A stretch of DNA of 32,000 bases from Candidatus Saccharimonadota bacterium (GTDB lineage: Bacteria > Bacillota_I > Bacilli_A > Mycoplasmatales > Hepatoplasmataceae): positions 360,001 through 392,000 of the forward strand of contig AP027131.1 in the NCBI GenBank assembly GCA_027925225.1. The letters are read 5' to 3'. The position numbers were made by a program, and so were the translations under genes. Numbering within the stretch: the first letter of the stretch is position 1; each line of letters starts with the position of its first letter. The notes below the pieces were generated by a model. That model saw only the letters and a program-made list of their open reading frames with translations, did not search any database and was not told the DNA's origin. This document shows, in pieces, positions 1-31,545 of this stretch.

Positions 1-1115
1 CATGTTTCTGAAAATGAAAAATTAGTATCACTTAAAATTGCAATTCTATTTAATTGATTAGTATTTTTTAATCCTCATATTTCAAGTAAAGAAGAATCAC
101 TAATTGTAAAATCTTTTTCATTAGTAAAAGTTAAATATTGTAATACTCCAAAATAATTAATTGCAACATCAGAAATTATTTTATCTGTTTTTACAATATT
201 AAAAGTTGTTTGATTATTGTTTGCTATTTTAGATTTAAAAATTAAAAAATCATAATTTGAATAATTTTCACTTAATGTTGTATTAGTTCTATCATTAAGT
301 AATTTGTAATCAGGAAAAGAATACCCAGAAATTTTTTCTATACCTGTAAAAATATTATTTAAATTTGAGGGTTGAGCAAATTTTGTAAAAGTAATATCAT
401 AATCAGAAATAATACTCATATAAAAACCATAATAGTTTGAATTATTACTATTTGCAGAATTATAAGAAATATTATTAACCTTTTCTCCAATTAAGTTTAA
501 TCATCCATTTTTAAAGAAATCTGTAGTTTTATCATTTGTTGTAGATTTAAAAAAATAAATATTATTATCTGTTATTGAAAAGGGTAATATTTTTTCAGTT
601 AGACTTGCATCTTGATCTGGAATTAATTGAATTTCTTCTATTTCTTTTTCATCTTCTGTTTTTCCAGCTATACTATCAATTCCTATTTTTAAGGAATTAA
701 AAGTATTGTGGATTTTTTTGTGTTCATTAACATTTTCTTCATTTGCTGTTTTTTGATTTAAAGCAACACCAGAAAGTGATTCTAACGAAGAATCAAAAAG
801 AGAAACAGAAGAAGTGTCTATTTCTACTTCATTTTCAGATAATTTATTAATTTTTTTATTATTTAAAAATTTTTTTGATTGATTAAAAACTTCATTCCTA
901 ACTTTAATTAAATTTGTGTCATTTTCGGCACTTTTAATATTAATATTATTTAAACTAGTTTGATTTGTTTTAATATTAATATTTTCTAATTCTTTTACAT
1001 CTAATTTTTTAAAAGGCTTAGAAAACATTTGATTTTCATTTTTTTTAATTGGTGTAAAATTATTATTTTCTTTATTTAAATTTTCGAATTTATTTGTTGT
1101 TTTTTTTAATTTCAT
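1..1115 (-). CDS. Giant-repeat fibre-like protein family, paralog A. The N-terminal 371 codons are in the window and the C-terminus runs off the left edge.
   Basis: The ATG at 1113-1115 is preceded by AAGAGGAG. Track ORFs 501..1115 and 75..419 share one frame and are joined only by in-frame TGA (501-503, 75-77). I found no TAA/TAG in that frame from 1115 down to position 3. The protein aligns with the modules of the next gene (LESLSG..NQ..A.EENVN.H, LIPDQDASL, GWLNLIGE, SDYDITFTKFAQPSN, SSLLEIW). Confidence 0.85.
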
Positions 1116-1467: not shown

Positions 1468-4400
1468 CTAAGATTTTCTTATATAAACATTTAAATTATT
1501 TATTTCATTTTTGCTTAAATTATTATCATTTGATAATTTTTTTACTAAAGATCAATTACCATAATTTGGTAAATATTTATCACCAACAATGATACTACCT
1601 ATTGGAAGCATTAAATTATCAACCATAGATACTAATGAATTTATTTGTGTTTGTAAATTAGTAATAATATTATTATTTTTATTTAGGACATCTCTTTTAA
1701 TTTGATTTATTTGTAAATAAAATCTTCTTAAATCTGTTTTATTTAATTTTTCTGCTAAAAGATTATCAACATAAAGTTTAGATGTTATATTTGAATCTGA
1801 TTTTGGTAATAATGCATTACCATTTCCGTCAATAATATCTACTCCTGTTGTTAGAACTCTTAATTCTGCAACATTTCCATTTTTATTATCAAAATTTTTA
1901 ATAAATGGAGAAGCGTCAACATCATTATAACCAAATAATTTCATTTCATCATTTTCATTATTATTTAAAGAAGTAGGAATTACTTCACTATTTATTGATC
2001 TTTCTAATCTTCTTAATTTTCTTTGGAATCTTCTATTTACTTCTGCTTGATTGTCTCCGCCTTCAAATCTATTGTTTGTTGTTGGTATTTTTGAAGTATT
2101 TAAACTAGAAATTCCATCTTTTCAAATATGATTAATTCCAAAAATTTCTACATTACTTAATTTATTATCAATATTATTAAAAGTACCTGACAATTCATCT
2201 GTTAATGTAAATGTGCTTCTTCCTTCAATTGAAAATTTATTTACATTATTTAATGTTAATGAATTTGTTGGAATTAAAATTCCTGATAATTTACTATCGA
2301 TATAATAAGAAATAAATATAAATTGATAATTACATCATGTTTCTGAAAACACAAAATTAGTATCACTTAAAGTTGCAATTTTATTTAATTGATGATTATT
2401 TTTAAAACCTCATATTCCAAGTAAAGAAGAATCATCAATTGTAAAATCTGTTTCATTATTAAAAGTTAAATATTTTAATGTTCCAAAATAATTTATTGCA
2501 ACATCAGAAACAATTTTATCTGTTTTTACAATATTAAAAGTAGTTTGTTGATTATTATCTATTTGAGATTTAATTATTAAAAAATCATAATTTAAATAGC
2601 TCTCTATTAATGATGTATTTGTTCCATCATTAAGTTTAGTATTTTCAAATGAATATCCCGAAATTCTTTTTATACCTTTAAAACTATTATCTGTATTTGA
2701 AGGTTCAGCAAACTTTGTAAAAGAAACATCGTAATCAGAAACAATATTCATATAAAAACCGTAATAATTTGAATTATTAACATCTGAAATGTTATAAACA
2801 ATATTATTAACATTTTCTTCAACTAAATTAAATCCGGCATTTTTTAAAAAATCTACATTTGCATCACTTGTTGAAGATTTTAAAAAATAAATATTATTAT
2901 TTGTTATTGGATAAGGTAATGTTTTTGAAGAAAGATTTGCATTTTGTCCTGGAATTAAATTAATTTCCTCAAATGCATCTTCATCCGAAATTTTTCCAAT
3001 TGCATTATTTATTTGTTCTGTAAAAGTATTAATAGTATTATGGATAGCAATATGATCATTAACATTTTCTATATTAACTTCTGCTTGAGTAGAAGCACTT
3101 TGAGTAATTGATTCTACCGAAGGATCAACAACTGTTAAAACTGAAGTATTATTTATTTCACTTAATGAAGGTCATTCAGTTATTAAATCACCATTTAAAA
3201 TAAGTTGAGGATAATTATATACACCAGTTTCTATATCTACTAAATCATCAGAATTTGTTTGAGTTTGAATTAAATAAGGATTTATTCCTTCATTTGGATT
3301 TGTGCCACTGTCAACTGTTAATTCTGAAGTATTTGTTGTTGTTGTTACTTCAATTGTTCCGTCTATTATTCCTGTTACTTGTGTATTTAAAGTATCTACT
3401 TCTGTATTTAAAATTTCTATGTTGTCAGCATTTGTCTGAGTTTGAATTAAATAGGGATTTATTCCTTCAGTTGAGCTTTCTTCGCTATCAATTATTAATC
3501 CTGAAGTGCTTGTTGTTGTTGTTACTGCAATTGTTCCATCTTTTATTCCTGCCACTTCTGTATTTAAAGTATCTACTTCTGTATTTAAACTTTCTATATC
3601 TGTGGCATTTGTCTGAGTTTGAATTAAATATGGATTTATTCCTTCAGTTGGATTTGTAGTACTATCATCTATAACTGTTGAAGAATATGAGCTTGTAACA
3701 ATAGGTGTTGTTCCGTCTATTATTCCTGCTACTTCTGTATTTAAAGCATCTATTTCTGTCGCATTTGTCTGAGTTTGAATTAAATATGAATTTATTCCTT
3801 CAGTTGGATTTGTAGTACTATCATCAATAACTGTTGAAGAATAAGAGTTTGTAACAATAGGTGTTGTTCCGTCTATTATTCCTTCTACTTCTGTATTTAA
3901 AGTATCTAATTCTGTACTTAAACTTTCTATATTTGTAGTATTTGTCTGAGTTTGAATTAAATAAGGATTTATTCCGTCATCTGGATTTGTAGTACTATCA
4001 TCTGTTATTTCTGAAGATATAGATGCTCCATCACCCGAAGATCATGTTTCTATTGTTTCTCCGTTTAATGTTAATTGAGGAAAATCATAAGTTCCACTCA
4101 TTATTTCTTCTAAATCACTACTATTTTTAGATACATTTATTTCCATTGCAAGTAAATCTGTTTGATCTGCTTTTGTTTCAATATTTGATTTATTTTCATC
4201 AATTTGTGTTTTTCAAGGATTTATTCCTTCTGTTGGATTTGTAGTACTATCATCTGTTACTTTAGAAGAATCAGAAGTTGTAACAACAGGTGTTGTTCCG
4301 TCTATTATTCCTTCTACTTCTGTATTTAAAGTATCTAATTCTGTATTTAAGGCACCTACTTCTGTATTTAAATTTTCTATATCTGTAACATTAGTCTGAG

Positions 4401-7400
4401 TTTGAATTAAATAAGGATTTATTCCTTCAGTTGGTTTTGTAGCACTATCGTCTGTTACTTTAGAAGAATCAGAAGTTGTAATAATAGGTGTTGTTCCATC
4501 TACTATTCCTTCTACTTCTGTATTTAAGATACCTACTTCTGCATTTAAATTTTCTATTTCTGTAGCATTTGTCTGAGTTTGAATTAAATAAGGATTTATT
4601 CCTTCAGTTGGATTTTCTTCACTATCATCTGTTATTTTTGAAGAAACTGGAACAATAAAAGGTCATTCTGTAATTTCTTCTCCATTTAATGTGATTTTAG
4701 GATAATCATAACTACCATCTTTTATTGTTATTAAATCTGAATTGTTTTGATTAACAATTATATTTGTTTCATCTAAATCTGATTGATCTGCTTTTAATGA
4801 AATATTTCCTGTATTTGTATCAATTTGTGTTTTTCAAGGATTTATCCCTTCGGTTGGATTTATAGCACTATCATCAGTTATTTCTGAAGAACTAAAATCT
4901 ATAGCAATAGGTATTGTCCCATCAATTATTCCTTCTACTTCTGTATTTAAGATACCTACTTCTGTATTTAAATTTTCTATATCTGTAGTATTTGTTTGAA
5001 TTTGAATTAAATAAGGATTTATTCCTTCAGTTGGGTTTTCTTCGCTATCATCTGTTATTTTTGAAGAATTAGAAGTTGTGACAACAGGTGTTGTTCCGTC
5101 TATTATTCCTGTTACTTGTGTATTTAAAGTATCTACTTCTGTATCTAAATTGTTTATACTAACAATATTTTTTTGAGTTTGAATTAAATAAGGATTTATC
5201 CCATCATCTGGATTTGTCCCACTATCATTAATTAATGCAGAAGTGAAAAAAGATATTAAAGTTGTTCCATCTATTATTCCTGTTACTTGTGTATTTAAAG
5301 TATCTAATTCTGTATTTAAAGTATCTACTTCTGTATTTAAAGTATCTATATTTTCAGTATTTGTCTGAGTTTGAATTAAATAAGGATTTATTCCAAGCGT
5401 TGGATTAATGTCACTATCATCAATTACTTCAGAAGATATTAAAGTTCCAATTTCTCCTGAAGGTCAATCTTCAATTGTTTGACCATTTAATGTTAACTGA
5501 GGATAATCATAAGTACCATCTTTTATTTCTTCTAAATCAGAACTGTTTTGAGTTATAACAGTATTTATTGAATCTAAATCAGTTTTATCTGCTTTAGATG
5601 TTTCTAAATATGTTAAACTATTTTGTACATTTTCATTAACTTCTGCTTGATTTTCTCCACCTTCAAGTTCACTATCTGCTGTTTGTAATTTTAAGGTGTT
5701 TATACTAGAAACGCCATCTTTTCAAATATGATTAAGACCATAAATTTCTGTATCACTTAATTTTCCATCATTATTATTAAAAGTTCCTTCTAATTCATTT
5801 ATTAATGTAAAATCATTTCTTCCATCTATTGTAAATCTATTTGCAGTATTAAGTATTATTGAATTTGTTGGTATTAAAACTCCACCTAAAACTCCACTTA
5901 ATTTATAAGAAACAAAAATAAATTGATAATTAGTTCATGCTTCTGAAAAGAGAAAATTATTGTCACTTAAAATTGCAATTCTATTTAATTGATGATTATT
6001 TTTAAAACCTCATATTCCAAGTAAAGAAGAATCACTAATTGTAAAATCTGTTTCACTAGTAAAAGTTAAATATTGTAATGTTCCAAAATAATTCATTGCA
6101 ACATCAGAAACTATCTTATCTGTTTTTACAATATTAAAGGTTGTTTGTTGATTATTTATTATATGAGATTTAATTATTAAGAAATCATAATTTAAATAAC
6201 TTTCACTTAATGTTGTAGTTGTTCTGTCATTAAGTTTAACACTAGAAAACGAATATCCAGAAATTTTGTTTATTCCTGTAAAAGAATTACCTTGATTTGA
6301 GGGTTGAGCAAATTTTGTAAAAGTAACATTATAATCAGAAATAACACTCATGTAGAAACCATAATAATTTGAATTACTACTATTTGAAGCATTATTATGA
6401 ATATTATTAACATTTTCTCCAATTAAATTTAATCCAGCATTTCTAACAAAACTTGAAGTTGAATTTGAATATGAAGACTTAAAAAAGTAAACATCATTAT
6501 CTGTTATTGGATAAAATAATGTTTTTTCAGCTAAACTTGCAACTTGATCTGGAATTAAATCTAATTCCTCAATTAAATCTTCATCTGGAACTCTCCCTAT
6601 TACATTATTTATTTGTGATGTAAAAGTACTAATAGTATTATGAAGAACTATATGATCATTAACATTTTCTTGATTTGCTATTTCTTGATTTATTGCATTG
6701 CCAGAAATTGATTCTAGTGTAGAATCAACAAGATTTATAAGAGAACTATTACTCTCTTGTCCTCCTTCAATTCAATTATTGATTACCTGTCCATTTAAAG
6801 TAAGTTGTGGATAATTATAAGTCCCTTCTTCTATTGCGGTTAAATCTAAATTATTTTGATTAACAATTATATTTGTTGCATCTAAATCAGATTGATTTGC
6901 TTTTAAAGAAATATCTTCAGTGTTTTTATCAACTTGTATTAAAGAAGGATTTATTCCAAGCGTTGGATTTAAATCACTGTCATCAGTTATTCTAGATGAT
7001 GTTGAAGAAGTTAATGAACTTTCTGAAGATCATTCTTCAATTGTTTGTCCATTTAAAGTAAGCTGTGGATAATTATAAGTTCCTTCTTCTATTGAAATTA
7101 AATCTGAATGTACATTTTCATTAACTTCTGCTTGATTTTCTCCACCTTCAAGTTCACTATTTGCTGTTGGTATTTTTGAAGTATTTATATTAGAGTTTCC
7201 TTCTTTTAAAATATGATTAAATCCATAAATTTCTACATCAGTTAATTTTCCATCAGGATTTGAAAAAATACCTTCCAATTCATTTGTTAATTTGAAATTA
7301 TTTCTTCCGTCTATTGAAAATATATTTTCATTATTTGATGTTATTGAATTTGTTGGTATTAAAACACCACCTAAAACTCCACTTATGTAATAAGAAACAA

Positions 7401-10101
7401 AAATAAATTGATAATTAGTTCATGTTTCTGAAAACACAAAATTAGTATCGCTTAAAATTGCAATTTTATTTAATTGACGATTATTTTTAAATCCTCATAT
7501 TCCAAGTAAAGAAGAATCGCTAATTGTAAAATCTGTTTCACTAGTAAAAGTTAAATATTGTAATGTTCCAAAATAATTCATTGCAACATCAGAAATTATT
7601 TTATCGGTTTTAACAACATTAAAAGTTGTTTGTTGATTATTAATTACCTGTGATTTAATTATTAAAAAATCATAATTTAAATAGCTTTCACTCAGTGTTG
7701 TAGTTGTTCTGTCATTAAGCTGAATATTAGAAAATGGATATGCAGAAATTCTCTCTATACCCGTAAAAGAATTACCTTGGTTTGAAGGTTGAGCAAATTT
7801 TGTAAAAGTAATGTCATAATCAGAAACAACATTCATATAAAAACCATAATAATTTGAATTATTACTATTTGAAGCATCGCAAATACTATTATTAACATTT
7901 TCGCCAATTAAATTTAAACCAGTATTTGCAAAAAAATCTCTATTTGCAACACTTGTTGAAGATCTTAAAAAATAAATATAATTATTAGTTATTGGATAAG
8001 GTAATGTTTTTTCAAGTAAATTTGCAATTTGATTTGAAATTAAATTAATTTCCTCAAAGGGTTCTTCATCTACAACTTTTCCTGATATGTTATTTATTAT
8101 CTGATTAAAATTATCAATAGAATCATTAATATATTTATGATCATTAACATTTTCTTGATTTGCTATTTCTTGATTTATTGCAGTACCAGAAAGTGATTCT
8201 AATGAAGGGTCAACAAGTGTTACAAGAGAAGTTTTACTATTTCCTCCCATATCAGATCATTCTGTAATTGTTTGATCACTTAAAGTAAGTTGTGGATAAT
8301 TATAGGTTCCTTCTTCTATTGTAGTTAAGTCTATATTATTTTGATTAACATTGGCATTTGTTGCATCTAAATCAGCTTGATTTGCTTTTAAAGAAATGTC
8401 TTCTTTATTTTTATTAATTTGTATTAAAGAAGGATTTATTCCAAGTGTAGGATTTAAATTACTATCATCAGTTATTTCACTTGATTTTGAAGCGGCAACT
8501 AAACTTTCTGATGGTCAGTTTGTTATAACTTTACCATTTAAAGTAAGTTTTTGATAATCATAAGTCCCATCTTCTATTTCATTTAAATCAGCGTGTACAC
8601 TTTTATTAACTTGCTCTTGATTATTTCCTCCTTCAAGCGAAGAATCTACTGTTGGTATTTTTGAAGTACCTAAACTTGAAACTCAATTTTCAAAAATGTG
8701 ATTAATTCCATAAATTTCTACATCAGTTAATTTTCCATCAACATTATTAAAAGTACCCTCTAATTCATTTTTTAAAACCACGATACTTCTTCCATCTATT
8801 GAAAATTTAATATTTATATTTAAAGCTATTGAATTTGTTGGTATTAAAACACCGCCTAAAACTCCACTTATGTAATAAGAAACAAAAATAAATTGATAAT
8901 TAGTTCATGTTTCTGCAAATGAAAAATTAGCAGCATTTAAAATTGCAATTCTTCTTAATTGACGATTATTTTTAAAACCTCATATTCCAAGTAAAGAAGA
9001 ATCACTAATTGTAAAATCTGTTTCACTAGTGAAAGTTAAATACTGTAATGTTCCAAAATAATTCATTGCAACATCAGAAACTATCTTATCTGTTTTTACA
9101 ATATTAAAGTTTGTTTGTTGATTATTTGCTATCTGAGATTTAATTATTAAGAAATCATAATTCAAATAACTTTCACTTAATGTTGTAGTTGTTCTGTCAT
9201 TAAGATTCACACTAGAAAAAGAATATCCAGAAATTTTTGCTATTCCTCTGAAAGCATTAGAAGAATTTGAAGGTTGAGCAAATTTTGAAAAAGTAATGTC
9301 ATAATCAGAAACAACACTAGCAAAAATACCAATATAATTTGAATTATTACTATTTGAAGAATTGTAGAGAGTAGTATTAAAATTTTCACCAATCAAATTT
9401 AATCCTGCGTTTTTAAAAAAAACTTCATTTGAAGTAGATGATAAACATTTTAAAAAATAAACATCATTATTTGTTATTGGATAAGGTAATGTTTTCTCAG
9501 CTAGACTTGCATCTTGATCAGGAATTAAATCAATTTCTTCAAATGCTTCTTCATCTGCTATTTTCCCTAATATATTATTTATTTCTAGCGAAAAACTACT
9601 AACAGTATTGTTAATAGAAATATGATCATTTACATTCTCTTTATTTGCAATTTCTTGATTTACTGCAGTTCCGGAAATTGACTCTAATGAAGAATTACTT
9701 AATACTAAAAGTGAAGTATCAGTTATTTCTTCATTAATAGATTGATTTTCTGTAATTTGATTTTTTAAAATAGATTTTGAAAAATCATTTAATGATTTAT
9801 TTTTTATTGATTTTAAATTTAATATTTTTTGATTTTTATTTAAATCAATATTTGTTTTATTTGATATATTTTGATTAATATTTTTTCTATTATTAGAAAA
9901 AATAATTTTCTTTGTTTTATTTATTTCTTGTTGAGAATTTACATTTTTAAAAGTTTTATCAACAGGAATAATTTTTGTGTTTTGAAATTTCCTTATATTT
10001 AATTTTAAGGGGTCTTTCTTAATAGATGTATTTTTATTAATTTCTAAATTACTAGTTTTATCTAAAGTTTTAGAGTTTTTTTTTGTTTTTTCAAATTTCA
10101 T
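1468..10101 (-). CDS. Giant modular repeat protein, paralog B (2877 aa with TGA=Trp). It has four ~330-aa beta-rich 'SDYD...LLGIW' globular modules, a GINPY short-repeat array, and a coiled-coil/tail-fibre-like C-terminal tip.
   Basis: I split every line from 10101 down to 1468 into codons in the frame whose plus-strand triplets start at 1 mod 3. No TAA/TAG occurs until the TAG at 1468-1470, and there are many in-frame TGA. All seven track ORFs (8980..10101, 7495..8250, 7030..7278, 6010..6351, 3172..3555, 2410..2751, 1552..1944) lie in this one frame. The ATG at 10099-10101 is preceded by AAAGAGGGA, with an in-frame upstream TAA at 10120-10122. Confidence 0.88.
3170..5460 (-). repeat. In-frame tandem array of ~170-180 bp (about 57-60 aa) 'GINPYLIQTQTN...LNTEV...IIDGTTP' units. 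It is interrupted three times by 'Y-D/N-Y/F-P-x-[IL]-[TN]-L-N-G-x-x-[IV]-[TE]-x-W' units.
   Basis: The string gtttgaattaaataaggatttattcc recurs near 3265, 3441, 3613, 3773, 3951, 4401, 4580, 5001, 5180 and 5370. The interrupting units lie near 4040-4100, 4660-4700 and 5460-5500. This array forms the 2.1-kb extra length between module anchors 6010 and 2410. Confidence 0.85.
6010..9700 (-). repeat. 1485-bp (495-aa) direct repeat modules inside paralog B.
   Basis: The 'LLGIW' TGA anchors at 8980, 7495 and 6010 are spaced exactly 1485 bp. The 'LES[LI]SG.A[IV]NQEIA..ENVNDH' anchors near 9690, 8205 and 6720 are spaced about 1485 bp. Stretches such as 5941-6120, 7441-7620 and 8941-9120 are nearly identical at DNA level. 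Further copies lie at 1950-3130 and in paralog A (1-800). Confidence 0.85.
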
Positions 10102-10424: not shown

Positions 10425-13400
10425 TTATGCTTCTCTTTTTCAAATATAAAATTTATTTTCTTTATTTTTAAGTAAATATTTAGAAAAATCAAATGTTTTA
10501 TTTTCTGATAATTTTCCCATATTAATTCAAATTCCATATTGAGGAGAATCTGAAGAAATAATAATACTATCTATAGGTAAATATAATTTTTTAATAATTT
10601 CATTTAAATTATTAATTTGATCTTGAACATTTTCGTTAATTAATTCTTGCGTTTCTCCATCTTTTATTATTTTATTCATTGATAAAATATTTGAAGTATT
10701 AGAAGTTGTAGAAAGAAAATTTGTTGCATTCATTAATTCTGCTATATTACTTGTATTTTCATCAATTTGAGTTTTTCAAGGGTTTATTCCTTGAAGTGGA
10801 TTTGTAGCACTATTATCTATTGTTAATGAAGAAGAAGAATTTATTTGAATTGTTCCATCTATTATATCTTCTATATTTTCAGTATTATTTGATATAGCAA
10901 CCGCATTTGCATCAATTTCAGATTTTCAAGAATTTATTCCTTCTGTTGAATTCGTTTCACTATCATCAATTAATTCTGAAGTATTAGTAATTAGAGTAAT
11001 AGATGTTGTTCCATCTATTATTCCTGCAATGTTTGCTGCATTTTCTGTTATTCCAATTGCATTTTCATCAATTTGAGTTTTTCAAGGATTTATTCCTTGA
11101 AGTGGATTTGTAGCACTGTCATCTGTTGTTAATGAAGAAATAGAATTTACTGAAGTTGTCCCATCAATTAAATCTTCTATATCTGCAGAATTTGCTGCTA
11201 TGCTTGAAGCATTTGCTGCAATAGCAATTACATTTGCATCAATTTGAGTTTTTCAAGAATTTATTCCTTCTGTTGAATTCGTTTCACTATCATCAATTAA
11301 TTCTGAAGTATTAGTAATTAGAGTAATAGATGTTGTTCCGTCTATTATTCCTGCAATGTTTGCTGCATTTTCTGTTATTCCAATTGCATTTTCATCAATT
11401 TGAGTTTTTCAAGGATTTATTCCTTGAAGTGGATTTGTAGCACTGTCATCTGTTGTTAATGAAGAAATAGAATTTACTGAAGTTGTCCCATCAATTAAAT
11501 CTTCTATATCTGCAGAATTTGCTGCTATGCTTGAAGCATTTGCTGCTATAGCAATTACATTTTCATCAATTTGAATTTTTCAAGGGTTTATTCCATCATC
11601 TGGATTTTCTTCACTATCATCTGTTAATAAAGATGAAGAAGAAGCACCGCCTGAAGGCCAAGCAGTAATTGATTCTCCAGCTAATGTTAATTTTGAATAA
11701 TTAAAAGTTCCATCTTCTATTGAAGCAATTTCTGCAGCATTTTCTGTTATTCCAATTGCATTTTCATCAATTTGAGTTTTTCAAGGGTTTATTCCTTGAA
11801 GTGGATTTGTAGAACTATCATCTGTTGTTAATGAAGAACGAGAAGTTACTGAAATTGTTCCATCAATTATGTCTGCTATATCTGCAGAATTTGCTGCTAT
11901 AGCAATTACATTTTCATCAATTTGAGTTTTTCAAGGATTTATTCCATCATCTGGATTTTCTTCACTATCATCTGTTAATAAAGATGAAGAAGAAGCACCG
12001 CCCGAAGGTCAAGCAGTAATTGATTCTCCAGCTAAAGTAATTTGAGAGAAATCAAAGTCTCCAGTTTTAATTGAATCTAAATCTTCAGTATTTTGACTAA
12101 CTTCAGCACTTAAATCGTCCAATGCATCATCAACATATAATTTGGGAACTGCAGAGCTATCACTTATAGGAAGAAGCACATCACCATTACTATGAATTAA
12201 ATTAATACTATCAGCTAAGATTCTTAATTCTGCATCTTCACTTGTAGTTAGATCTGTTTTTCTAATAAAAGGCGAACCATCTTCTGCATAACCAAATTCT
12301 GCTTCTTGGTTAAGCTCTTCATCTAGAAAATAATCATCTAATTTATCTTCTATTTCTAAAAGTTTAGGATTTATTCCTTCTTCTGGATTTGTTTCACTAT
12401 CATCAGTTATTCCTGAAGAAGCAGAAGCCCCATCACCCGAAGGTCAAGATGTTATTATTTCTCCATTTAAACTAATTTGAGGAAAATCAAAGTCTCCAGT
12501 TTCAATTGAATTTATATCATCGGTATTTTCATCAATTGCAGTTTTTCAAGGGTTTATTCCTTCAGTTGGATTTGTTTCACTATCATCAGTTATTCCTGAA
12601 GAAGCAGAAGCCCCATCACCCGAAGGTCAAGATGTTATTGAATTTCCATTTAAATTAATTGAATCAAAAGCAACATCTCCGCTTAACATTCCTGCTATAT
12701 CATCTGTATTTATATCAATTGCAGTTTTTCAAGGATTTATTCCTTGAAGTGGATTTGTAGAACTATCATCTGTTGTTAATGAAGAACGAGAAGTTACTGA
12801 AATTGTTCCATCAATTATGTCTGCTATATCATCGGTATTTTCATCAATTTGATTTTTTCAAGGATTTATTCCTTCGGTTGGATTTGTTTCACTATCATCA
12901 GTTATTCCTGAAGAAGCAGAAGCACCATCACCCGAAGGTCAAGATGTTATTATTTCTCCATTTAAACTAAGTTGAGGGAAATCAAAATCTCCAGTTTCAA
13001 TTGAATTTATATCATCGGTATTTTCATCAATTGCAGTTTTTCAAGGGTTTATTCCTTCGGTTGGATTTGTTTCACTATCATCAGTTATTCCTGAAGAAGC
13101 AGAAGCCCCATCACCCGAAGGTCAAGATGTTATTATTTCTCCATTTAAACTAAGTTGAGGGAAATCAAAGTCTCCAGTTTCAATTGAATTTATATCATCA
13201 GTGTTTTGACTAACTTCAGCACTTATATCACCCAATAAATTGTCAACATATAATTTAGGAACTGCAGAGCTATCACTTATAGGAAGAAGTACATCACCAT
13301 TACTATGAATTAAATTAATACTATCAGTTAAGATTCTTAATTCTGCATCTTCACTTGTTGTTAGATCTGTTTTTCTAATAAAAGGTGAACCGTTTTCTGT

Positions 13401-16400
13401 ATAACCAAATTCTGCTTCTTGATTAAGCTCTTCATCTAGAAAATAATCATCTAATTTATTTTCTATTTCTAAAAGTTTAGGATTTATTCCTTCGGTTGGA
13501 TTTGTTTCACTATCATCAGTTATATCTGAAGAAGCAGAAGCCCCATCACCCGAAGGTCAAGATGTTATTATTTCTCCATTTAAACTAAGTTGAGGAAAAT
13601 CAAAGTCTCCAGTTTCAATTGAATTTATATCATCGGTGTTTTCATCAATTGCAGTTTTTCAAGGGTTTATTCCGTCATCTGGATTTGTTTCACTATCATC
13701 TGTTATTTCTGAAGAAGCAGAAGCCCCATCACCCGAAGGTCAAGATGTTATTATTTCTCCATTTAAACTAAGTTGAGGAAAATCAAAGTCTCCAGTTTCA
13801 ATTGAATTTATATCATCAGTGTTTTGACTAACTTCAGCACTTATATCGCCCAATAAATTATCAACATATAATTTAGGAACTGCAGAGCTATCACTTATAG
13901 GAAGAAGTACATCACCATTACTATGAATTAAATTAATACTATCAGTTAAGATTCTTAATTCTGCATCTTCACTTGTTGTTAGATCTGTTTTTCTAATAAA
14001 AGGTGAACCGTTTTCTGTATAACCAAATTCTGCTTCTTGGTTAAGCTCTTCATCTAGAAAATAATCATCTAATTTATTTTCTATTTCTAAAAGTTTAGGA
14101 TTTATTCCTTCGGTTGGATTTGTTTCACTATCATCAGTTATTCCTGAAGAAGCAGAAGCCCCATCACCCGAAGGTCAAGATGTTATTATTTCTCCATTTA
14201 AACTAAGTTGAGGGAAATCAAAGTCTCCAGTTTCAATTGAATTTATATCATCGGTGTTTTCATCAATTGTAGTTTTTCAAGGGTTTATTCCGTCATCTGG
14301 ATTTGTTTCACTATCATCAGTTATTCCTGAAGAAGCAGAAGCCCCATCACCCGAAGGTCAAGATGTTATTATTTCTCCATTTAAACTAAGTTGAGGGAAA
14401 TCAAAGTCTCCAGTTTCAATTGAATTTATATCATCAGTGTTTTGACTAACTTCAGCACTTATATCGCCCAATAAATTATCAACATATAATTTAGGAACTG
14501 CAGAGCTATCACTTATAGGAAGAAGTACATCACCATTACTATGAATTAAATTAATACTATCAGTTAAGATTCTTAATTCTGCATCTTCACTTGTTGTTAG
14601 ATCTGTTTTTCTAATAAAAGGTGAACCGTTTTCTGTATAACCAAATTCTGCTTCTTGATTAAGCTCTTCATCTAGAAAATAATCATCTAATTTATTTTCT
14701 ATTTCTAAAAGTTTAGGATTTATTCCTTCGGTTGGATTTGTTTCACTATCATCAGTTATATCTGAAGAAGCAGAAGCCCCATCACCCGAAGGTCAAGATG
14801 TTATTATTTCTCCATTTAAACTAAGTTGAGGAAAATCAAAGTCTCCAGTTTCAATTGAATTTATATCATCGGTGTTTTCATCAATTGCAGTTTTTCAAGG
14901 GTTTATTCCGTCATCTGGATTTGTTTCACTATCATCTGTTATTTCTGAAGAAGCAGAAGCCCCATCACCCGAAGGTCAAGATGTTATTATTTCTCCATTT
15001 AAACTAAGTTGAGGAAAATCAAAGTCTCCAGTTTCAATTGAATTTATATCATCGGTATTTTGACTAACTTCAGCACTTATATCGCCCAATAAATTATCAA
15101 CATATAATTTAGGAACTGCAGAGCTATCACTTATAGGAAGAAGTACATCACCATTACTATGAATTAAATTAATACTATCAGTTAAGATTCTTAATTCTGC
15201 ATCTTCACTTGTTGTTAGATCTGTTTTTCTAATAAAAGGTGAACCGTTTTCTGTATAACCAAATTCTGCTTCTTGGTTAAGCTCTTCATCTAGAAAATAA
15301 TCATCTAATTTATTTTCTATTTCTAAAAGTTTAGGGTTTATTCCTTCGGTTGGATTTGTTTCACTATCATCAGTTATTCCTGAAGAAGCAGAAGCCCCAT
15401 CACCCGAAGGTCAAGATGTTATTATTTCTCCATTTAAACTAAGTTGAGGAAAATCAAAGTCTCCAGTTTCAATTGAATTTATATCATCGGTATTTGCATC
15501 AATTGTAGTTTTTCAAGGGTTTATTCCGTCATCTGGATTTGTTTCACTATCATCTGTTATTTCCGAAGAAGCAGAAGCCCCGTCACCCGAAGGTCAAGAT
15601 GTTATTATTTCTCCATTTAAACTAAGTTGAGGAAAATCAAAGTCTCCAGTTTCAATTGAATTTATATCATCGGTATTTGCATCAATTGTAGTTTTTCAAG
15701 GGTTTATTCCGTCATCTGGATTTGTTTCACTATCATCAGTTATATCTGAAGAAGCAGAAGCCCCATCACCCGAAGGTCAAGATGTTATTATTTCTCCATT
15801 TAAACTAAGTTGAGGAAAATCAAAGTCTCCAGTTTCAATTGAATTTATATCATCGGTGTTTTCATCAATTGTAGTTTTTCAAGGGTTTATTCCATCATCT
15901 GGATTTGTTTCACTATCATCAGTTATATCTGAAGAAGCAGAAGCACCATCACCCGAAGGTCAAGATGTTATTATTTCTCCATTTAAACTAAGTTGAGGGA
16001 AATCAAAATCTCCAGTTTCAATTGAATTTATATCATCGGTGTTTTCATCAATTGTAGTTTTTCAAGGATTTATTCCTTCGGTTGGATTTGTTTCACTATC
16101 ATCTGTTATTCCTGAAGAATTTAAATTTATTGTAATTGTTCCATCAATTATATCTGCTATATCATCTGCATTTGCATCAATTGTAGTTTTTCAAGGGTTT
16201 ATTCCATCATCTGGATTTGTTTCACTATCATCTGTTATATCTGAAGAAGCAGAAGCACCATCACCCGAAGGTCAAGATGTTATTATTTCTCCATTTAAAC
16301 TAAGTTGAGGGAAATCAAAGTCTCCAGTTTCAATTGAATTTATATCATCGGTGTTTTCATCAATTGTAGTTTTTCAAGGATTTATTCCTTCGGTTGGATT

Positions 16401-19400
16401 TGTTTCACTATCATCTGTTATTCCTGAAGAATTTAAATTTATTGTAATTGTTCCATCAATTATATCTGCTATATCATCTGCATTTGCATCAATTGCAGTT
16501 TTTCATGGATTTATTCCTTCTGTTGGATTTGTTTCACTATCATCTGTTATATCTGAAGAAGCAGAAGCCCCATCACCCGAAGGTCAAGATGTTATTATTT
16601 CTCCATTTAAACTAAGTTGAGGGAAATCAAAATCTCCAGTTTCAATTGAATTTATATCATCGGTGTTTTCATCAATTGTAGTTTTTCAAGGATTTATTCC
16701 TTCGGTTGGATTTGTTTCACTATCATCTGTTATTCCTGAAGAATTTAAATTTATTGTAATTGTTCCATCAATTATATCTGCTATATCATCTGCATTTGCA
16801 TCAATTGCAGTTTTTCATGGATTTATTCCTTCTGTTGGATTTGCTTCACTATCATCTGTTATATCTGAAGAAGCAGAAGCCCCATCACCCGAAGGTCAAG
16901 ATGTTATTATTTCTCCATTTAAACTAAGTTGAGGAAAATCAAAGTCTCCAGTTTCAATTGAATTTATATCATCGGTGTTTTCATCAATTGTAGTTTTTCA
17001 AGGATTTATTCCTTCGGTTGGATTTGTTTCACTATCATCAGTTATATCCGATGAAGCAGAAACCCCATCACCCGAAGGTCATTCTGTTATTGTGTCTCCA
17101 CCTAATGTTAATTTCGGAAAATCAATATTTCCACCTTGAATATCTTCAATATCTGATTTATTTGCTCTATTTATTGCTTCTTGATCACCTCCGCCTTCTG
17201 CAGTAGAACTAGTAGCTAAAATATCTGAAGTATAAAGTGTTCCGCCACTTCCGCCTGAAGGTCATTCTGTTATTGTGTCTCCGCCTAATGTTAATTTCGG
17301 AAAATCAATATTTCCATCTTGAATATCTCCAATATCTGAAGTATTATCTTCAATACTTGTTTTATTTGCTTTATTTATTGCTTCTTGATCACTTCCACCT
17401 TCTGAAGCAGAACTAGTAGCTAAAATGTCTGAAGTATAAAGTGTTCCGCCACTTCCTCCTGAAGGTCATTCTGTTATTGTATCTCCACCTAATGTTAATT
17501 TTGGAAAATCAATATTTCCTTCTTGAATATCTCCAATATCTGAAGTGTTTTGACTAATATCTGAAGTATTATCTTCAATACTTGTTTTATTTGCTCTATT
17601 TATTGCTTCTTGATCACTTCCGCCTTCTGAAGAAGAACTAGTAGCTAAAATATCTGAAGTATAAAGTGTTCCGCCACTTCCGCCTGAAGGTCATTCTGTT
17701 ATTGTATCTCCACCTAATGTTAATTTTGGAAAATCAATATTTCCACCTTGAATATCTCCAATATCTGAAGTATTATCTTCAATACTTGTTTTATTTGCTC
17801 TATTTATTGCTTCTTGATCACTTCCGCCTTCTGAAGAAGAACTAGTAGCTAAAATGTCTGATGTATAAAGTGTTCCGCCACTTCCTCCTGAAGGTCATTC
17901 TGTTATTGTATCTCCACCTAATGTTAATTTCGGAAAATTAATATTTCCATCTTGAATACTTTCAATATCTGATTTGTTTGCTCTGTTTATTATTTCTTGA
18001 TTATTTCCGCCTTCTGAAGTAGAACTAGAAGCTAAAATATCTGAAGTATAAAGTGTTCCGCCACTTCCATCTGAAGGCCATTCTGTTATTGTGTCTCCAC
18101 CTAATGTTAATTTTGGAAAATTAATATTTCCATCTTGAATATCTCCAATATCTGAAGTATTTTGACTAATGTCTGAAGTATTATCTTCAATACTTGTTTT
18201 ATTTGCTCTATTTATTGCTTCTTGATCACTTCCGCCTTCTGAAGTAGAACTAGAAGCTAAAATGTCTGATGTATAAAGTGTTCCACCGCTTCCATCTGAA
18301 GGCCATTCTGTTATTGTGTCTCCACCTAATGTTAATTTTGGAAAATTAATATTTCCATCTTGAATACTTTCAATATCTGATTTGTTTGCTCTGTTTATTA
18401 TTTCTTGATTACTTCCACCTTCTGAAGCAGAACTAGAAGCTAAAACGTCTGATGTATAAAGTGTTTCGCCGCTTCCATCTGAAGGTCATTCTGTTATTGT
18501 GTCTCCATTTAAAGTAATTGATGTAAATGGTAAATCGCCACCTATAAGATCTGCTATATCTGAAGCATTATCAGCAATATTTGAAGTATTTGTTGCAATG
18601 TCTGAAGTATTTGTTGCAATATTTGATTTATTTAATTCATTTATTATTTGTTGATTGCTTCCGCCTTCTAATGTAGAACTAACAGCAGTAATATCTGATG
18701 TTGAATAATCTTCTTCGCCAACTGAAGGTCATTCTGTTATTGTATTGCCATTTAAAATTAATTGTGGATAACTAATAATTCCACTTTTAATATCTAAAAT
18801 ATCTGAAGCATTTTTATCAACATTTACTTTATTTGCTTCATTTATTATTTGCTGAGTTCTTCCACCTTCTGCAGCAGAACTAACAGCATCAATATTTGAG
18901 GTTAAAGAATTTTCTCCTCCATCTGAAGGTCATTCTGTTATTGTGTCTCCATTTAAAGTAATTGATGTAAATGGTAAATCGCCACCTATAAGATCTGCTA
19001 TATCTGAAGAGTTTTTATTAATTTCAGAAGAATTTGCTGAAATTGTTTCTTTATTTAATTCATTTATTATTTGTTGAGTACTTCCACCTTCTAATGTAGA
19101 ACTAACAGCAGTAATATCTGATGTTGAGTAATTTTCTTCTCCGCCTGAAGGTCATTCTGTTATTGTGTCTCCATTTAAAGTAATTGATGTAAATGGTAAA
19201 TCGCCACCTATAAGATCTGCTATATCTGAAGCATTATCAGCAATATTTGAAGTATTTGTTGCAATGTCTGAAGTATTTGTTGCAATATTTGATTTATTTA
19301 ATTCATTTATTATTTGTTGGTTGATTCCGCCTTCTAATGTAGAACTAACAGCAGTAATATCAGAAGTTAAGTAATTTTCTTCTCCGCCTGAAGGCCATTC

Positions 19401-24726: not shown

Positions 24727-26232
24727 ATGAAGAAATATTTTTTACTTATTTTAATTACACCAATTTTATTTACGACAGGTTTAAAACAAGGAATTAAAAA
24801 TAATTCTATTGATTTTAAAAATCTAGAAGCCACATCAAACCCATATCTTAAAGATGATGGAACAGCTGTGGAAATAATAGATGAACAAGCAACAGATACA
24901 ACGGCTCAATTTGAATTATGAGTATCAGATAATGAAAATAATGATTTTTATTATAATAGCTTAGTTGCAAATGATGATGAAATTGAAATAACAATTATAG
25001 ATGAAACTGATTCAGATAATTCTATTGATACAACTGCAATTTGTACTTCTGATGTAGGTGCTCCACTTGCATATTATATGTTTGAAATAGATAATTTAGA
25101 AACAAGTCATACATATGAATTATATTCGCTTAATAATACTGGACTTGCTGTTGGAAGTGCAAGCGACGAGCTTGATGATGAAATTATTCTTGCAGATGAT
25201 TTAAATATTACAGATAATAAATTTACGCCAGGCGGAGATCCAATTACTAATGATAATCCTTATATAGAAGATGGGGGATTTGAAATTACTGAAACAGCAA
25301 TAAGTTCAGTTCAATTTCAAATTACTGTAACAAATAACGAAGCAGAAGATTTTGATGAAACAAAATCACTTGATGTAACAATAAATGATTCAGAAGAAGA
25401 TTCACACAATACAACTGCAACTTATGTTTCAACAAGTGGTTCAAATAAATATACTTATGAAATGACAGAGTTAGATGATAGTAGCAATACAGCATTCACA
25501 TCAGGAGAATCTTATGAAATTTATTCTCTAAATGATACTGGGCTTGCGGTTATTAGTGGAGATTCAGAAATAGATAATGAAATTCTTATTAATGAAGATT
25601 TAGGTGTGGATGCATCTTTTACAGCTACTGATGAAAATAGCGGAGATACTGAATTACCTTACATAGTTACACCAAATGGATTTGAAATTGTTGAAACAAC
25701 AACAAGTTCTGTTCAATTCCAAATTAATGTAATAAATAATGATGATAATGATTTTAATGAAAGAAATTCAATTGCTGTTACAATAAAAGATTCACACGGT
25801 GGTTCTTATGATTCAACTGCATCTTATGTAAGCACAGGCGATCAAAATGACACTTATATTTATGAAATAACAGAACTCGATGATGAAAATGGTATAGCAT
25901 TTACAGCTGATGAATCTTATGAAATTTATTCTCTAAATGATACTGGACTTGCTGTTGGTAGCAGCGATTCAGAAATAGATAATGAAATTCTTGTTAATGC
26001 AGAATTAGGAGTTAATGGATCTTTTACAACAATAGATGAAAATGATAGTGATGGTGGTAATGGTATTGGTGAATGATGATTATTAGCATTTATAATATTT
26101 CTTATAATAATGGTTACTTTAGGAATATTTCTTTTATTACAAATATTAGATGATAGAAGATGAAAAAAAGATTTTGAAGAAATTGAAGAAGAAATTCATA
26201 ATAGTTCTAATCATCAAAGTAGTAATCATTAA
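24727..26232 (+). CDS. Signal-peptide, C-terminally TM-anchored surface protein with three ~135-aa 'NPYIE' modules (501 aa).
   Basis: Track ORFs 24727..24921 and 25078..26076 are in the same frame. They are joined through an in-frame TGA (24919-24921) and a checked stop-free stretch. The frame continues through TGA TGA (26074-26079) and TGA (26161-26163) to the TAA at 26230-26232. The N-terminus is MKKYFLLILITPILFTTG. The C-terminus is WWLLAFIIFLIIMVTLGIFLLLQIL followed by the charged tail DDRRWKKDFEEIEEEIHNSSNHQSSNH. Confidence 0.88.
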
Positions 26233-30300: not shown

Positions 30301-30375
30301 AAATATAAAAAAAAATTAGAAATTAAGAAATTAAATAAAATTGAAAAAGATTTTAGTGAAGAATCTAATTTTTAA
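27340..30375 (+). CDS. Signal-peptide, C-terminally TM-anchored surface protein with about 7-8 'NPYIE' modules (1011 aa). It is a paralog of 24727..26232.
   Basis: I hand-translated 27604-28740 and found no TAA/TAG, with TGA at 27601, 27838 and 28489. This joins track ORFs 27340..27603 and 28741..30375 in the same frame. The N-terminus is MKIKNKLFIVSFILFLPFLQIKFF. The C-terminus is ILIYTLLFFIILIVLLLFIISMNIY followed by a Lys-rich tail. The recurrent module is NPYIE..GFEI....SV.F.I.V.NN..DFD....L.VT.KDS...Y.T..TY.....NY.YE..E......YEI.SLN.TGLAVG. Confidence 0.88.
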
Positions 30376-31245: not shown

Positions 31246-31545
31246 GTGGAAAGAGAAATTCTAAAAAAAATAGAAATTTTAGAAAAAAATGCTCGTCTAA
31301 AATTAAATAAAAAGGAAAAAGAAATTTTTTTAATTGATTATAAATCATTTTTAAATTCTTTAAATGAATTTGAAAAAATAAAACTTGATAACATAGAAGA
31401 AATTGATTTTCCTTTTAAAATTACATCTTCATATTTAAGAGAAGATAAAATATATAAAAATGAAGATACATCTTCATTATTAAATAATTCAAAAAACATA
31501 AAAAATAATTATTTTATTTTAAAAAGAAAAAAAGATGAAAAATAA
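31246..31545 (+). CDS. gatC: Asp/Glu-tRNA(Asn/Gln) amidotransferase subunit C.
   Basis: It encodes about 99 aa immediately upstream of, and overlapping, gatA. It has the GatC-like pattern LEKNARLKL..KE...F and ...YLREDK. The start is GTG and I see no in-frame ATG nearby. Confidence 0.7.
   Translation: MEREILKKIEILEKNARLKLNKKEKEIFLIDYKSFLNSLNEFEKIKLDNIEEIDFPFKITSSYLREDKIYKNEDTSSLLNNSKNIKNNYFILKRKKDEK

What the first reader, a model, noticed from the sequence alone, without database searches (positions are those of the whole stretch)
1468..1944. Both complete giant genes end in a similar coiled-coil plus 'LPIGSII...YG.W' tip that resembles phage tail-fibre ends
The C-terminus of paralog B reads ...AELRVLTTGVDIIDGNGNALLPKSDSNITSKLYVDNLLAEKLNKTDL, then a heptad-like stretch (RRFYLQINQIKRDVLNKNNNIITNLQTQINSLVSMVDNL), then MLPIGSIIVGDKYLPNYGNW and a short basic tail. 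The C-terminus of paralog C (10425-10733) reads ...ELINENVQDQINNLNEIIKKL, then YLPIDSIIISSDSPQYGIW and a short basic tail. From memory, many phage tail-fibre and tail-collar proteins show the same order: '...K.YVD..', then a coiled coil, then 'P[IV]G[ST]I[IV]......P.GW'. If the resemblance is real, these are cell-encoded fibres with virus-like receptor-binding tips, truncated right after the G.W motif. This is recollection-based motif matching, not a computed hit.
Basis: inference. Interest (0 to 1): 0.75.

Follow-up and report, generated by a model that had tools for sequence, protein, structure and literature searches.

The report
Phage-fibre-like cap on giant Hepatoplasma proteins
The giant repetitive proteins of an isopod-gut mycoplasma relative end in a helix plus a small cap that is homologous to the tip of a phage tail-fibre gene and remotely resembles the C-terminal core of phage T4 baseplate and short-fibre proteins, which suggests these published "adhesin candidates" are phage-fibre-type proteins.

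Summary
The window is from the Candidatus Hepatoplasma vulgare Av-JP MAG. Genes B (1468-10101, minus strand) and C (10425-24278, minus strand), and paralog A, which runs off the left edge, all end in helix + 'LP[IV][GD]S[IV]I...P.YG.W' + a short basic end.

Three other results support a phage-fibre link:
- An exhaustive HMMER search finds only five relatives. One of them (P0003) is the last structural gene, just before holin-like genes, on a 19-kb code-4 contig with a terminase, i.e. a small podovirus.
- P0003 and two small H. vulgare paralogs carry the same tip with about 95 extra residues (invariant SHNHQW). They end in the same terminal strand as A/B/C. The giants therefore lack an internal insert; they are not truncated.
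- HHalign aligns the short tails end-to-end with the T4 gp11 C-terminus (P=5e-5; 0 of 200 column shuffles reach the score). The long tips align with the gp12 collar-type start (P=6e-4; 0 of 200).

Most likely role: a trimerising cap, not a receptor-binding head. The trimer and the fold remain untested, because both AF2 monomer models were poor.

The parts
1468..10101 (-). Giant gene B (2877 aa under code 4; presumably HPAVJP_3230). Layout: K/N-rich basic N-terminus, four ~330-aa modules, short 'ITDDS..NPT.GINP' and 'G.Y.YPQLTLNG..I..W' repeats, then the C-terminal cassette.
   Evidence: No signal peptide or TM helix.
1756..1935 (-). B: beta-rich 'FGY..SPFI..AELRVLT..LLP.SDS...KLYVDNLL' module (aa 2723-2782).
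   Evidence: for coordinates. Family alignment A6. AF2 predicts four strands here at low confidence. Homologous copies occur in C, A, P0003 and P0004.
1609..1755 (-). B: predicted long alpha-helix (aa 2783-2831), with about 3 clean heptads at its C-terminal end. Candidate trimeric coiled coil.
1534..1608 (-). B: start of the tip, LPIGSIIVGDKYLPNYGNWSLVKKL (aa 2832-2856). The Trp codon is TGA at 1552-1554.
   Evidence: The complete-tip HMM hits this region at E=1.5e-3. HHalign to the gp11 C-terminus.
1471..1533 (-). B: 13-aa linker plus terminal strand LNVYIRKS (aa 2857-2877). It occupies the position where complete tips carry an insert of about 95 aa.
10425..24278 (-). Giant gene C (4617 aa; HPAVJP_3240 / BDV02435.1). 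It consists almost entirely of tandem repeats with periods of 129-495 nt.
10581..10700 (-). C: helical segment before the tip (aa 4527-4566).
10428..10580 (-). C: tip LPIDSIIISSDSPQYGIWINMGKL, an 18-aa linker and the terminal strand KFYIWKREA (aa 4567-4617).
   Evidence: The complete-tip HMM hits it at E=1.5e-6.
12126..15263 (-). C: five internal copies of the FGY..K.YVD module (15093-15263, 14475-14645, 13857-14027, 13239-13409, 12126-12296). The first four are spaced 618 nt apart.
3..1115 (-). N-terminal 371 aa of paralog A (HPAVJP_3220 / BDV02433.1, 2838 aa). Its tail lies outside the window but is of the same short type.

Best explanation
The 3' ends of the tandem giant genes of Ca. Hepatoplasma vulgare encode a conserved C-terminal cassette: a long helix followed by a minimal beta cap. 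The cap consists of the strand 'LPIGSII', a loop, the strand 'P.YG.W..L', a short linker and the terminal strand '.[VI][YW][IK][RK].[SA]'. The cassette is shared with a tail-fibre gene of a code-4 podovirus and with two small paralogs in the same genome, where the cap carries an extra insert of about 95 aa with an HxH motif (SHNHQW). The cap is a minimal version of the helix-plus-sheets 'flower motif' shared by T4 gp10, gp11 and gp12, a core that tolerates large loop insertions. By analogy, the helix and cap probably form an intertwined trimer at the C-terminal end and set the register of a long, repetitive, probably trimeric shaft. The giants lack the insert that would be the candidate ligand-binding head, so any binding specificity lies elsewhere in the protein.

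Shown: homology among A, B, C, HPAVJP_2990, HPAVJP_2930 and the phage protein P0003; the phage context of P0003; the insert-versus-no-insert relationship; profile similarity to gp11 and gp12 above controls; the absence of export signals.

Inferred: the flower-motif fold, trimerisation, the capping or registration role, and the fibrous nature of the shaft.
For: (1) An exhaustive hmmsearch of 1.84 billion representatives finds only 5 proteins: C, A, P0003, P0004 and P0005. P0006 was added (E=6e-51).
(2) P0003 lies at L001 10001-11629. This is a 19.2-kb code-4 contig of co-directional genes with two DNA methyltransferases and a terminase. The terminase matches PHROG 2150 at E=8.5e-18 over the full profile, and tblastn matches packaging proteins of 16.6-19.5-kb podoviruses. 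Next come an 824-aa protein with the same repeats (blastp vs C 1e-20), P0003 itself (vs C 3e-25, vs B 4e-12), and two small TM proteins.
(3) Alignment A5 shows that all six tails share Q, L, P, I, P, Y, G, W, L and a terminal R. The short tails lack about 95 residues between 'KL' and the last strand. No insert remnant occurs in the window. The short form is conserved across three paralogs that are 31-46% identical.
(4) T4 gp11 is the top PDB sequence hit for both tip profiles (E=3.4 and 0.1).
(5) With family alignments from 12 T4-like phages, HHalign aligns the short tails with the last 37 gp11 columns, right to the final residue: probability 67%, P=5.2e-5, score 25.8 against 8.3+-2.0 for 200 column shuffles (max 17.1). 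The long tips against the gp12 collar-type start give P=5.7e-4, score 29.0 against 12.6+-2.5 (0 of 200).
(7) AF2 places strands at the 'PIGSIIIS', 'FWESLG' and terminal 'MRVFK' positions, after a helix with pLDDT 70-79.
(8) A, B and C have no signal peptide or TM helix, as is true of phage fibres.
Against: No curated profile recognises the tip. Pfam Collar and GP11 and the PHROG fibre families give nothing, even for the complete tips. The PDB-wide E-values for gp11 (0.1 to 3.4) are not significant, and an unrelated ATPase scores the same. HHalign probability is only 67% over 36 columns, built from profiles of 3 and 12 sequences. Similarity to gp10 is weak (P=0.02; 5 of 200 shuffles reach it). 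gp11 was chosen after it appeared as the top hit, so the test is not fully a priori. Both AF2 monomer models are poor (pLDDT 44-46), so neither the fold nor the trimer has been shown. The phage assignment of L001 rests mainly on one terminase match plus gene order. Its capsid and portal candidates match nothing, and only 12.4 of its 19.2 kb were seen. A, B and C lack the N-terminal 'PYNLAEQV.ENT' motif shared by the two L001 fibres. Within the window they are flanked by cellular genes.
Confidence: 0.55

Rival explanations
1. The giants are ordinary host-attachment adhesins, as proposed in the genome paper. The C-terminal cassette is a lineage-specific domain whose likeness to T4 gp11/gp12 is convergent or due to chance. 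The phage L001 picked up host adhesin modules by recombination, for example to stick to the same isopod gut surface.
For: Kawato et al. 2024 (PMC10928387) interpret the tandem giant ORFs of Hepatoplasmataceae as candidate adhesins. Curated phage profiles do not recognise the tail. The family is confined to H. vulgare and two code-4 contigs, so the direction of transfer is open. The neighbouring genes are cellular surface proteins and gatCA.
Against: A, B and C have no signal peptide, lipobox or TM helix, whereas the neighbouring surface proteins have both a signal peptide and a C-terminal TM helix. The HHalign scores exceed all 200 column shuffles in three of the four comparisons. The alignment to gp11 extends to the terminal residue, well beyond the 18-residue match that first flagged gp11. 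The tip sits at the fibre position in a phage structural block.
Confidence: 0.22
2. A, B and C are true virion components: tail fibres or appendages of a resident prophage or a phage-derived particle of H. vulgare. They would be released by lysis, not exported.
For: They have no export signals. They share homology with phage fibre genes. Complete-tip paralogs HPAVJP_2930 and HPAVJP_2990 lie only about 23-30 locus tags away in the same genome, and that region could be a prophage.
Against: No phage gene occurs in the 32-kb window. A, B and C lack the N-terminal motif shared by both L001 fibres, the likely virion anchor. Sizes of 2.8-4.6k aa in three tandem copies are far beyond the 542-824 aa of the phage fibres. 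The HPAVJP_2930-2990 region could not be fetched.
Confidence: 0.13
3. The short tips are decayed remnants: the receptor-binding head was lost through deletion in degenerating genes, and the tail no longer has a function.
For: The insert of about 95 aa with the invariant SHNHQW is missing from all three giants.
Against: Stop-free frames of 8.6 and 13.9 kb persist in an 18-33% G+C genome. The short tail is conserved in three paralogs that have diverged to 31-46% identity, including the terminal strand. T4 gp11 naturally has a comparably short spacing, 26 aa after the Trp against 27, 23 and 33 aa.
Confidence: 0.05

Closest known systems
C-terminal 'flower motif' core of phage T4 gp11 (PDB 1EL6), gp10 (2FKK) and gp12 (1H6W/1OCY)
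   Same: The order of elements matches: a helix, then a strand '[P][IV]G.I..', then '(P).(Y)G.W..[LM]G', then a variable region, then a terminal aromatic-basic strand at the very C-terminus. The spacing in A/B/C (23-33 aa after the Trp) matches gp11 (26 aa). The long tips parallel gp10 and gp12, which carry large inserts and, in gp12, an HxH motif. HHalign gives P=5e-5 (gp11) and 6e-4 (gp12), both above all 200 shuffles. The literature describes the core as tolerant of big loop insertions.
   Different: No Pfam or PHROG profile match. The motif is 'P.YG.W', not the collar form 'P.GW'. The hosts are Mollicutes and the carrier phage is a small podovirus, not a T4-like myovirus. The carrier proteins are 2.8-4.6k-aa chromosomal repeat proteins, not baseplate components. 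Fold and trimer have not been verified.
P0003, the terminal fibre gene of the code-4 podovirus-like contig L001 (Logan SRR28755003_33)
   Same: True homologue. It has the same short repeats, FGY..K.YVD module, helix and 'LPIGSIIIS..PPYGTW' tip, and it ends in 'LIVWKRTS'.
   Different: It is 542 aa long. It has the N-terminal 'PYNLAEQV.ENT' motif shared with the neighbouring 824-aa fibre, and it carries the ~95-aa tip insert with SHNHQW. It is encoded in a phage structural block next to holin-like genes.
Giant tandem repetitive ORFs of Hepatoplasmataceae (Kawato et al. 2024, PMC10928387, Fig. 5)
   Same: [quoted passage not shown]
   Different: The paper reports Ig-like or beta-sandwich repeats for other species. 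It states that the H. vulgare units could not be modelled, and it mentions neither a phage relationship nor the C-terminal cassette.
Pfam PF07484 'Phage tail collar domain' / MdpB-like proteins
   Same: The gp12 proteins of the collar type used in my alignment gave the P=6e-4 match.
   Different: hmmscan finds no match even at E<=10. Downstream collar features (CDG, LPDLRG) are absent.

Membership tests
Pfam PF07484 phage tail collar domain | Profile HMM match at or near the gathering threshold | tested here: not met
   No Collar hit at E<=10 for the B or C tails or for the complete tips of P0003 and P0005. The strict regex P[IV]G[ST]I[IV]..P.GW is absent.
T4 gp10/gp11/gp12 'flower motif' core | Sequence-profile similarity to the C-terminal core of gp11 or gp12 beyond composition-matched controls | tested here: met
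   HHalign, short tails vs gp11 C-terminus: P=5.2e-5, probability 67%, 36 columns to the last residue, score 25.8 against shuffle 8.3+-2.0 (0 of 200). Long tips vs gp12: P=5.7e-4, 29.0 against 12.6+-2.5 (0 of 200). gp10 is weak (P=0.02, 5 of 200). The PDB-wide E-value for gp11 is only 0.1, so the support is moderate.
T4 gp10/gp11/gp12 'flower motif' core | Fold: an alpha-helix, then a 3-stranded sheet, then a further 2-3-stranded sheet, superimposable on 1EL6, 2FKK or 1OCY | tested here: inconclusive
   AF2 monomer models give a helix followed by strands at the expected places, but mean pLDDT is 44-46. No fold search was run because the models are unreliable.
T4 gp10/gp11/gp12 'flower motif' core | Intertwined homotrimer | not testable with these tools
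   Only monomer prediction is available, and TGA codons prevented submission of the full tail.
Phage tail fibre / receptor-binding protein | Encoded in a phage structural module | tested here: not met
   Met for the homologue P0003. Not met for A/B/C: within the window they are flanked by surface-protein genes and gatCA.
Phage tail fibre / receptor-binding protein | N-terminal virion-attachment region shared with the phage's other fibres | tested here: not met
   Both L001 fibres start with '..PYNLAEQV.ENT..'. A, B and C instead start with K/N-rich basic low-complexity sequence.
HxH metal-binding fibre head (gp12 / gp37 type) | HxH motif in the C-terminal head | tested here: not met
   SHNHQW is invariant in P0003, P0005 and P0006 but lies in the insert that A/B/C lack. 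Metal binding itself was not tested.
Mollicute surface adhesin / lipoprotein | Signal peptide, lipobox or TM anchor | tested here: not met
   The maximum Kyte-Doolittle 19-residue window in the first 60 aa is <=0.33. The best internal window (1.66) lies in a repeated globular module. The neighbouring genes do have a signal peptide and a C-terminal TM helix.
Hepatoplasmataceae giant tandem ORFs (PMC10928387) | [quoted passage not shown] | tested here: met
   C = BDV02435.1 / HPAVJP_3240 and A = BDV02433.1 / HPAVJP_3220, both by exact look-up. Described in the paper.

The most novel reading that the evidence does not exclude
A wall-less gut symbiont has turned phage tail-fibre building blocks (shaft repeats, K.YVD module, helix and a minimal gp11-like trimerising cap) into chromosomal fibres up to 4,617 aa long with no classical export signal. 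These could be used for attachment to the isopod host. Alternatively they could be anti-phage decoys, because the small paralogs HPAVJP_2990 and HPAVJP_2930 keep a complete tip 43-48% identical to that of the phage fibre. This would be a domesticated phage fibre acting without any tail, in a lineage for which no phage has been described.
Probability: 0.25. Interest if true: 0.8.

Novelty: new variant of a known kind. Interest (0 to 1): 0.6.

Why it matters
The giant tandem ORFs are the most conspicuous unexplained feature of Hepatoplasmataceae genomes, and for H. vulgare they resisted structural modelling. Linking their C-terminal cassette to a phage tail-fibre gene and to the T4 gp11/gp12 core has four consequences:
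- It gives the first concrete structural hypothesis for them: an obligate trimeric fibre nucleated at the C-terminus. This would explain why monomer predictions fail.
- It identifies what may be the first phage of this symbiont lineage (contig L001).
- It shows that the gp10/gp11/gp12-type core may exist far outside T4-like phages, in a minimal insert-free form of about 45 aa that would be a handy trimerisation tag if confirmed.
- It raises a testable question about how, or whether, a Mollicute exports 0.3-0.5 MDa proteins that carry no signal sequence.

Tried and rejected
- Code 25 (TGA=Gly): rejected, because TGA aligns only with TGG in the repeats.
- Pfam and PHROGs on the tails, whole proteins and complete tips: nothing relevant.
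- tblastn against 50,697 phage genomes. The B tail gave only E=1-3 hits to T4-like gp36 over the LLP..K.YVD stretch. The C module gave only noise. The tip alone gave no match.
- PDB phmmer: the Tako8 hit is a designed WD-repeat protein with four sub-threshold domains, so it is spurious. Nothing for C.
- Word-indexed homology search with the B tail and with a condensed B: zero hits, although A and C are in the collection. This looks like an index limitation.
The two accepted jobs gave pLDDT 45.5 and 44.0, so I did not run fold search.
- GTDB genomes, IMG/VR and JGI metagenomes: no relatives. The 26 metagenome pattern matches were all chance hits in non-coding frames.
- The source genome region around HPAVJP_2930-2990 could not be fetched.
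- The phage status of L002 (the P0004 contig) was not established.
- The L001 capsid and portal candidates have no Pfam, PDB or phage tblastn match.
- My by-eye likeness of B's 330-aa module to the L001 fibre and to Aeromonas-phage gp12 ends was not supported by HMMER.
- K.YVD module profile: no PDB hit, and only 1 of 8 members gave a weak PHROG tail-fibre hit.
Full report
WHAT IS THERE. The window has 18-33% G+C. Under table 11 it shows no giant genes. Under table 4 three minus-strand ORFs appear: B at 1468-10101 (2877 aa), C at 10425-24278 (4617 aa), and the first 371 aa of A at 3-1115. At conserved Trp positions of the repeats, TGA alternates only with TGG (33:1 and 44:4), so TGA encodes Trp and not Gly. 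Exact look-up identifies C as BDV02435.1 / HPAVJP_3240 and A as BDV02433.1 / HPAVJP_3220 of the Candidatus Hepatoplasma vulgare Av-JP MAG. B is presumably HPAVJP_3230. These are the published 'large repetitive ORFs organised in tandem clusters' of Hepatoplasmataceae. The authors propose them as adhesins and note that the H. vulgare repeat units could not be modelled (PMC10928387).

THE OBSERVATION. B ends in five parts: a beta-rich FGY..KLYVDNLL module (1756-1935), a predicted helix (1609-1755), LPIGSIIVGDKYLPNYGNWSLVKKL (1534-1608), a 13-aa linker, and LNVYIRKS. C ends in a helix, LPIDSIIISSDSPQYGIWINMGKL, an 18-aa linker and KFYIWKREA. The B and C tails are homologous (31% identity over 115 aa, E=2e-4). 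A's tail is 46% identical to B's (E=1e-45). The tip regex occurs once per protein, at the very end. The probability of a hit in shuffled sequence is 5e-5 to 2e-4. 'Coiled coil' is a predicted helix with about three clean heptads.

THE PROPOSED TEST FAILS. Pfam and PHROGs give nothing for the tails or whole proteins, and no tail-collar hit at E<=10. tblastn against 50,697 phage genomes gives only E=1-3 hits to T4-like gp36 over the LLP..K.YVD stretch, and nothing for the tip. PDB sequence searches with single tails give noise.

RELATIVES. An exhaustive HMMER search of 1.84 billion representative proteins with a three-row tail profile found only five proteins: C, A, P0003 (542 aa), P0004 (1083 aa) and P0005 (681 aa = HPAVJP_2990). 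A search with the complete tips added P0006 (163 aa = HPAVJP_2930; E=6e-51). P0003, P0005 and P0006 have the same repeats, helix and 'LPIGSIIIS..PPYG.W' start. They then continue for about 95 more residues (..LG.L.DGQ.IIGG.S.NG...SHNHQW...AYGLG.GT) before ending in LIVWKRTS, MRIFRRTA or MRVFKRTA. In the six-tail alignment the giants share the helix, the start of the tip and the terminal strand, and they lack the middle. The complete-tip HMM recognises the C tail (E=1.5e-6) and the B tail (E=1.5e-3) in the window, and no remnant of the insert exists in any frame. The giants therefore carry a conserved insert-free form. It is not a truncation.

THE PHAGE LINK. P0003 is encoded on a 19,179-bp Logan contig (L001). 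It uses code 4, has 24% G+C, and its genes are tightly packed and co-directional:
- two DNA methyltransferases;
- a 372-aa protein that matches PHROG 2150 'terminase' over the full profile (E=8.5e-18), and that matches the packaging proteins of 16.6-19.5-kb podoviruses of Bifidobacterium, Microbacterium and Curtobacterium;
- four unassigned genes (129, 77, 359 and 350 aa) and a 190-aa gene;
- an 824-aa protein with the B/C repeat types (blastp against C, 1e-20);
- P0003 itself (against C 3e-25, against B 4e-12);
- two small membrane proteins in the holin position.
The two fibre genes share an N-terminal '..PYNLAEQV.ENT..' motif that A/B/C lack. I read L001 as a small podovirus of a Hepatoplasma-like host, with P0003 as its distal fibre. 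This rests mainly on the terminase match, genome size and gene order. The capsid and portal candidates match nothing. P0004 lies on a 99-kb code-4 contig whose phage status I could not establish. No relatives exist in GTDB genomes, IMG/VR or JGI metagenomes.

THE T4 LINK. T4 gp11 was the top PDB sequence hit for the complete-tip profile (E=3.4) and for the six-tail profile (E=0.1). Neither is significant, and the second is tied with an unrelated ATPase. Reading the T4 proteins shows a common layout:
- gp11 ends [44 protein letters not shown], with 26 aa after the Trp. B has 27, A has 23 and C has 33.
- gp10 ends YPIGTIYENA..GFGSWKLFGQGKVLVGW..(about 95 aa)..PYITVYRWIRIA.
- gp12 has IPVGAIMMWAADSLPSDAW..YHKHAG..LNYIIKVKE.
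I built family alignments from T4 and 11 diverse T4-like phages and ran HHalign. The short tails against the last 60 aa of gp11 gave probability 67% and P=5.2e-5 over 36 columns that reach the final residue of both. This extends well beyond the 18 residues that first flagged gp11. Against full-length gp11 the P-value was 4.9e-4. The long tips against collar-type gp12 ends gave P=5.7e-4 over the PIGSIIIS..YG.W / PVGAIMMW..DAW start. Against gp10 the P-value was 0.02.

Column-shuffle controls, 200 each:
- short tails vs gp11 C-terminus: 25.8 against 8.3+-2.0, max 17.1, 0 of 200 reach it;
- short tails vs full gp11: 27.2 against 10.9+-2.2, 0 of 200;
- long tips vs gp12: 29.0 against 12.6+-2.5, 0 of 200;
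- long tips vs gp10: 19.4 against 13.1+-2.5, 5 of 200.
The T4 tail review states that gp10, gp11 and gp12 superimpose on a common core. [quoted passage not shown] That description fits the relation between the long and short Hepatoplasma tips.

HOW IT MOST LIKELY WORKS. This part is inference. The helix and minimal cap form an intertwined trimer at the C-terminus, which nucleates and registers a long repetitive trimeric shaft. The ~95-aa insert with the HxH motif, present in the phage fibre and in the two small paralogs, is the candidate distal head. The giants lack it, so their tip is a structural cap and not a receptor-binding domain. An obligate-trimer architecture would also explain why monomer AF2 fails, both here (pLDDT 44-46) and in the genome paper. 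A/B/C have no signal peptide, lipobox or TM helix, and their N-termini are basic and rich in K and N. The neighbouring surface-protein genes have both a signal peptide and a TM anchor. This fits a phage-fibre ancestry, and it leaves open how, or whether, the giants reach the cell surface.

RIVALS.
(i) Ordinary adhesins whose modules were captured by the phage, with the T4 likeness convergent (0.22).
(ii) Real virion fibres of a resident prophage (0.13). The nearby HPAVJP_2930-2990 region could not be inspected.
(iii) Decayed tips (0.05). Conservation across three diverged paralogs and intact 8.6-13.9-kb frames argue against this.

VERDICT. It is not a Pfam tail-collar member, it is not truncated after G.W, and it is probably not receptor-binding. 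The genes themselves are already published. The phage-fibre relationship, the insert/no-insert pair of tip forms and the candidate Hepatoplasma phage appear to be new. Interest is 0.6, and I rate it a new variant of a known kind.

Noticed in passing
L001 1-12390 (Logan SRR28755003_33, contig positions 6790-19179): A 19.2-kb code-4 contig with 24% G+C. It carries a terminase, two DNA methyltransferases, two fibre genes and two holin-like genes. It is probably a small podovirus of a Hepatoplasma-like Mollicute. The Hepatoplasmataceae genome paper mentions no phage of this lineage.
   Followed up: partly
L002 1-23252 (ENA ERZ27260161 k141_23815, 99 kb): A code-4 contig (29% G+C) with a run of 1517-, 1382-, 1083- (P0004) and 1349-aa genes, a faint portal hit and NrdF/NrdI. 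P0004 carries two K.YVD-type modules and a different C-terminal domain. Whether it is phage or chromosome is undecided.
   Followed up: partly
window 10425-24278: Gene C consists almost entirely of tandem repeats with periods of 129-495 nt, all multiples of 3 and up to 97% identical. Four K.YVD module copies are spaced exactly 618 nt apart. G+C is 32-33% here, against 18-25% in the flanks.
   Followed up: partly
window 10450-23358, + strand: Under code 4 the strand antisense to C carries long stop-free frames (for example 15301-17232, 644 aa). This is most likely a composition artefact of the repeats and not a set of genes.
   Followed up: no
window 24727-26229 and 27340-30372, + strand: Two genes for classical exported proteins, each with an N-terminal signal or TM segment and a C-terminal TM anchor. 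They are built of ~110-aa repeats ('NPYIE..GFEI.E...SV.F.I.V.NN..DF...YEI.SLN.TGLAV') and have no Pfam match. They contrast with the signal-less giants next door.
   Followed up: partly
window 31535-31999, + strand (and 31246-31545): Start of an amidase / GatA gene (Pfam Amidase, E=8e-50), preceded by a ~99-aa ORF in the gatC position. This confirms the chromosomal context.
   Followed up: partly
HPAVJP_2990 (P0005) and HPAVJP_2930 (P0006), outside the window: The same genome encodes two small paralogs (681 and 163 aa) with the complete tip, including SHNHQW, 43-48% identical to the phage P0003 tip. P0005 has a K/N-rich N-terminus like the giants. They could be prophage fibres or host-kept receptor-binding proteins.
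   Followed up: partly
window 1468-10101 (B) and P0002 (A): B and A each contain four ~330-aa globular modules ('..SLESISG.A.NQE..NYDFLIIKSQ..LLGIWGFKNN..YG.NHI') that C lacks. They have no detectable homologue anywhere: the best score is 8.6 bits, to an L002 protein.
   Followed up: partly
The word-indexed protein search returned nothing for the B tail or a condensed B, although A and C are in that collection. The exhaustive search found them. Negative results from the indexed tool on low-complexity, N/K-rich proteins should not be trusted.
   Followed up: no
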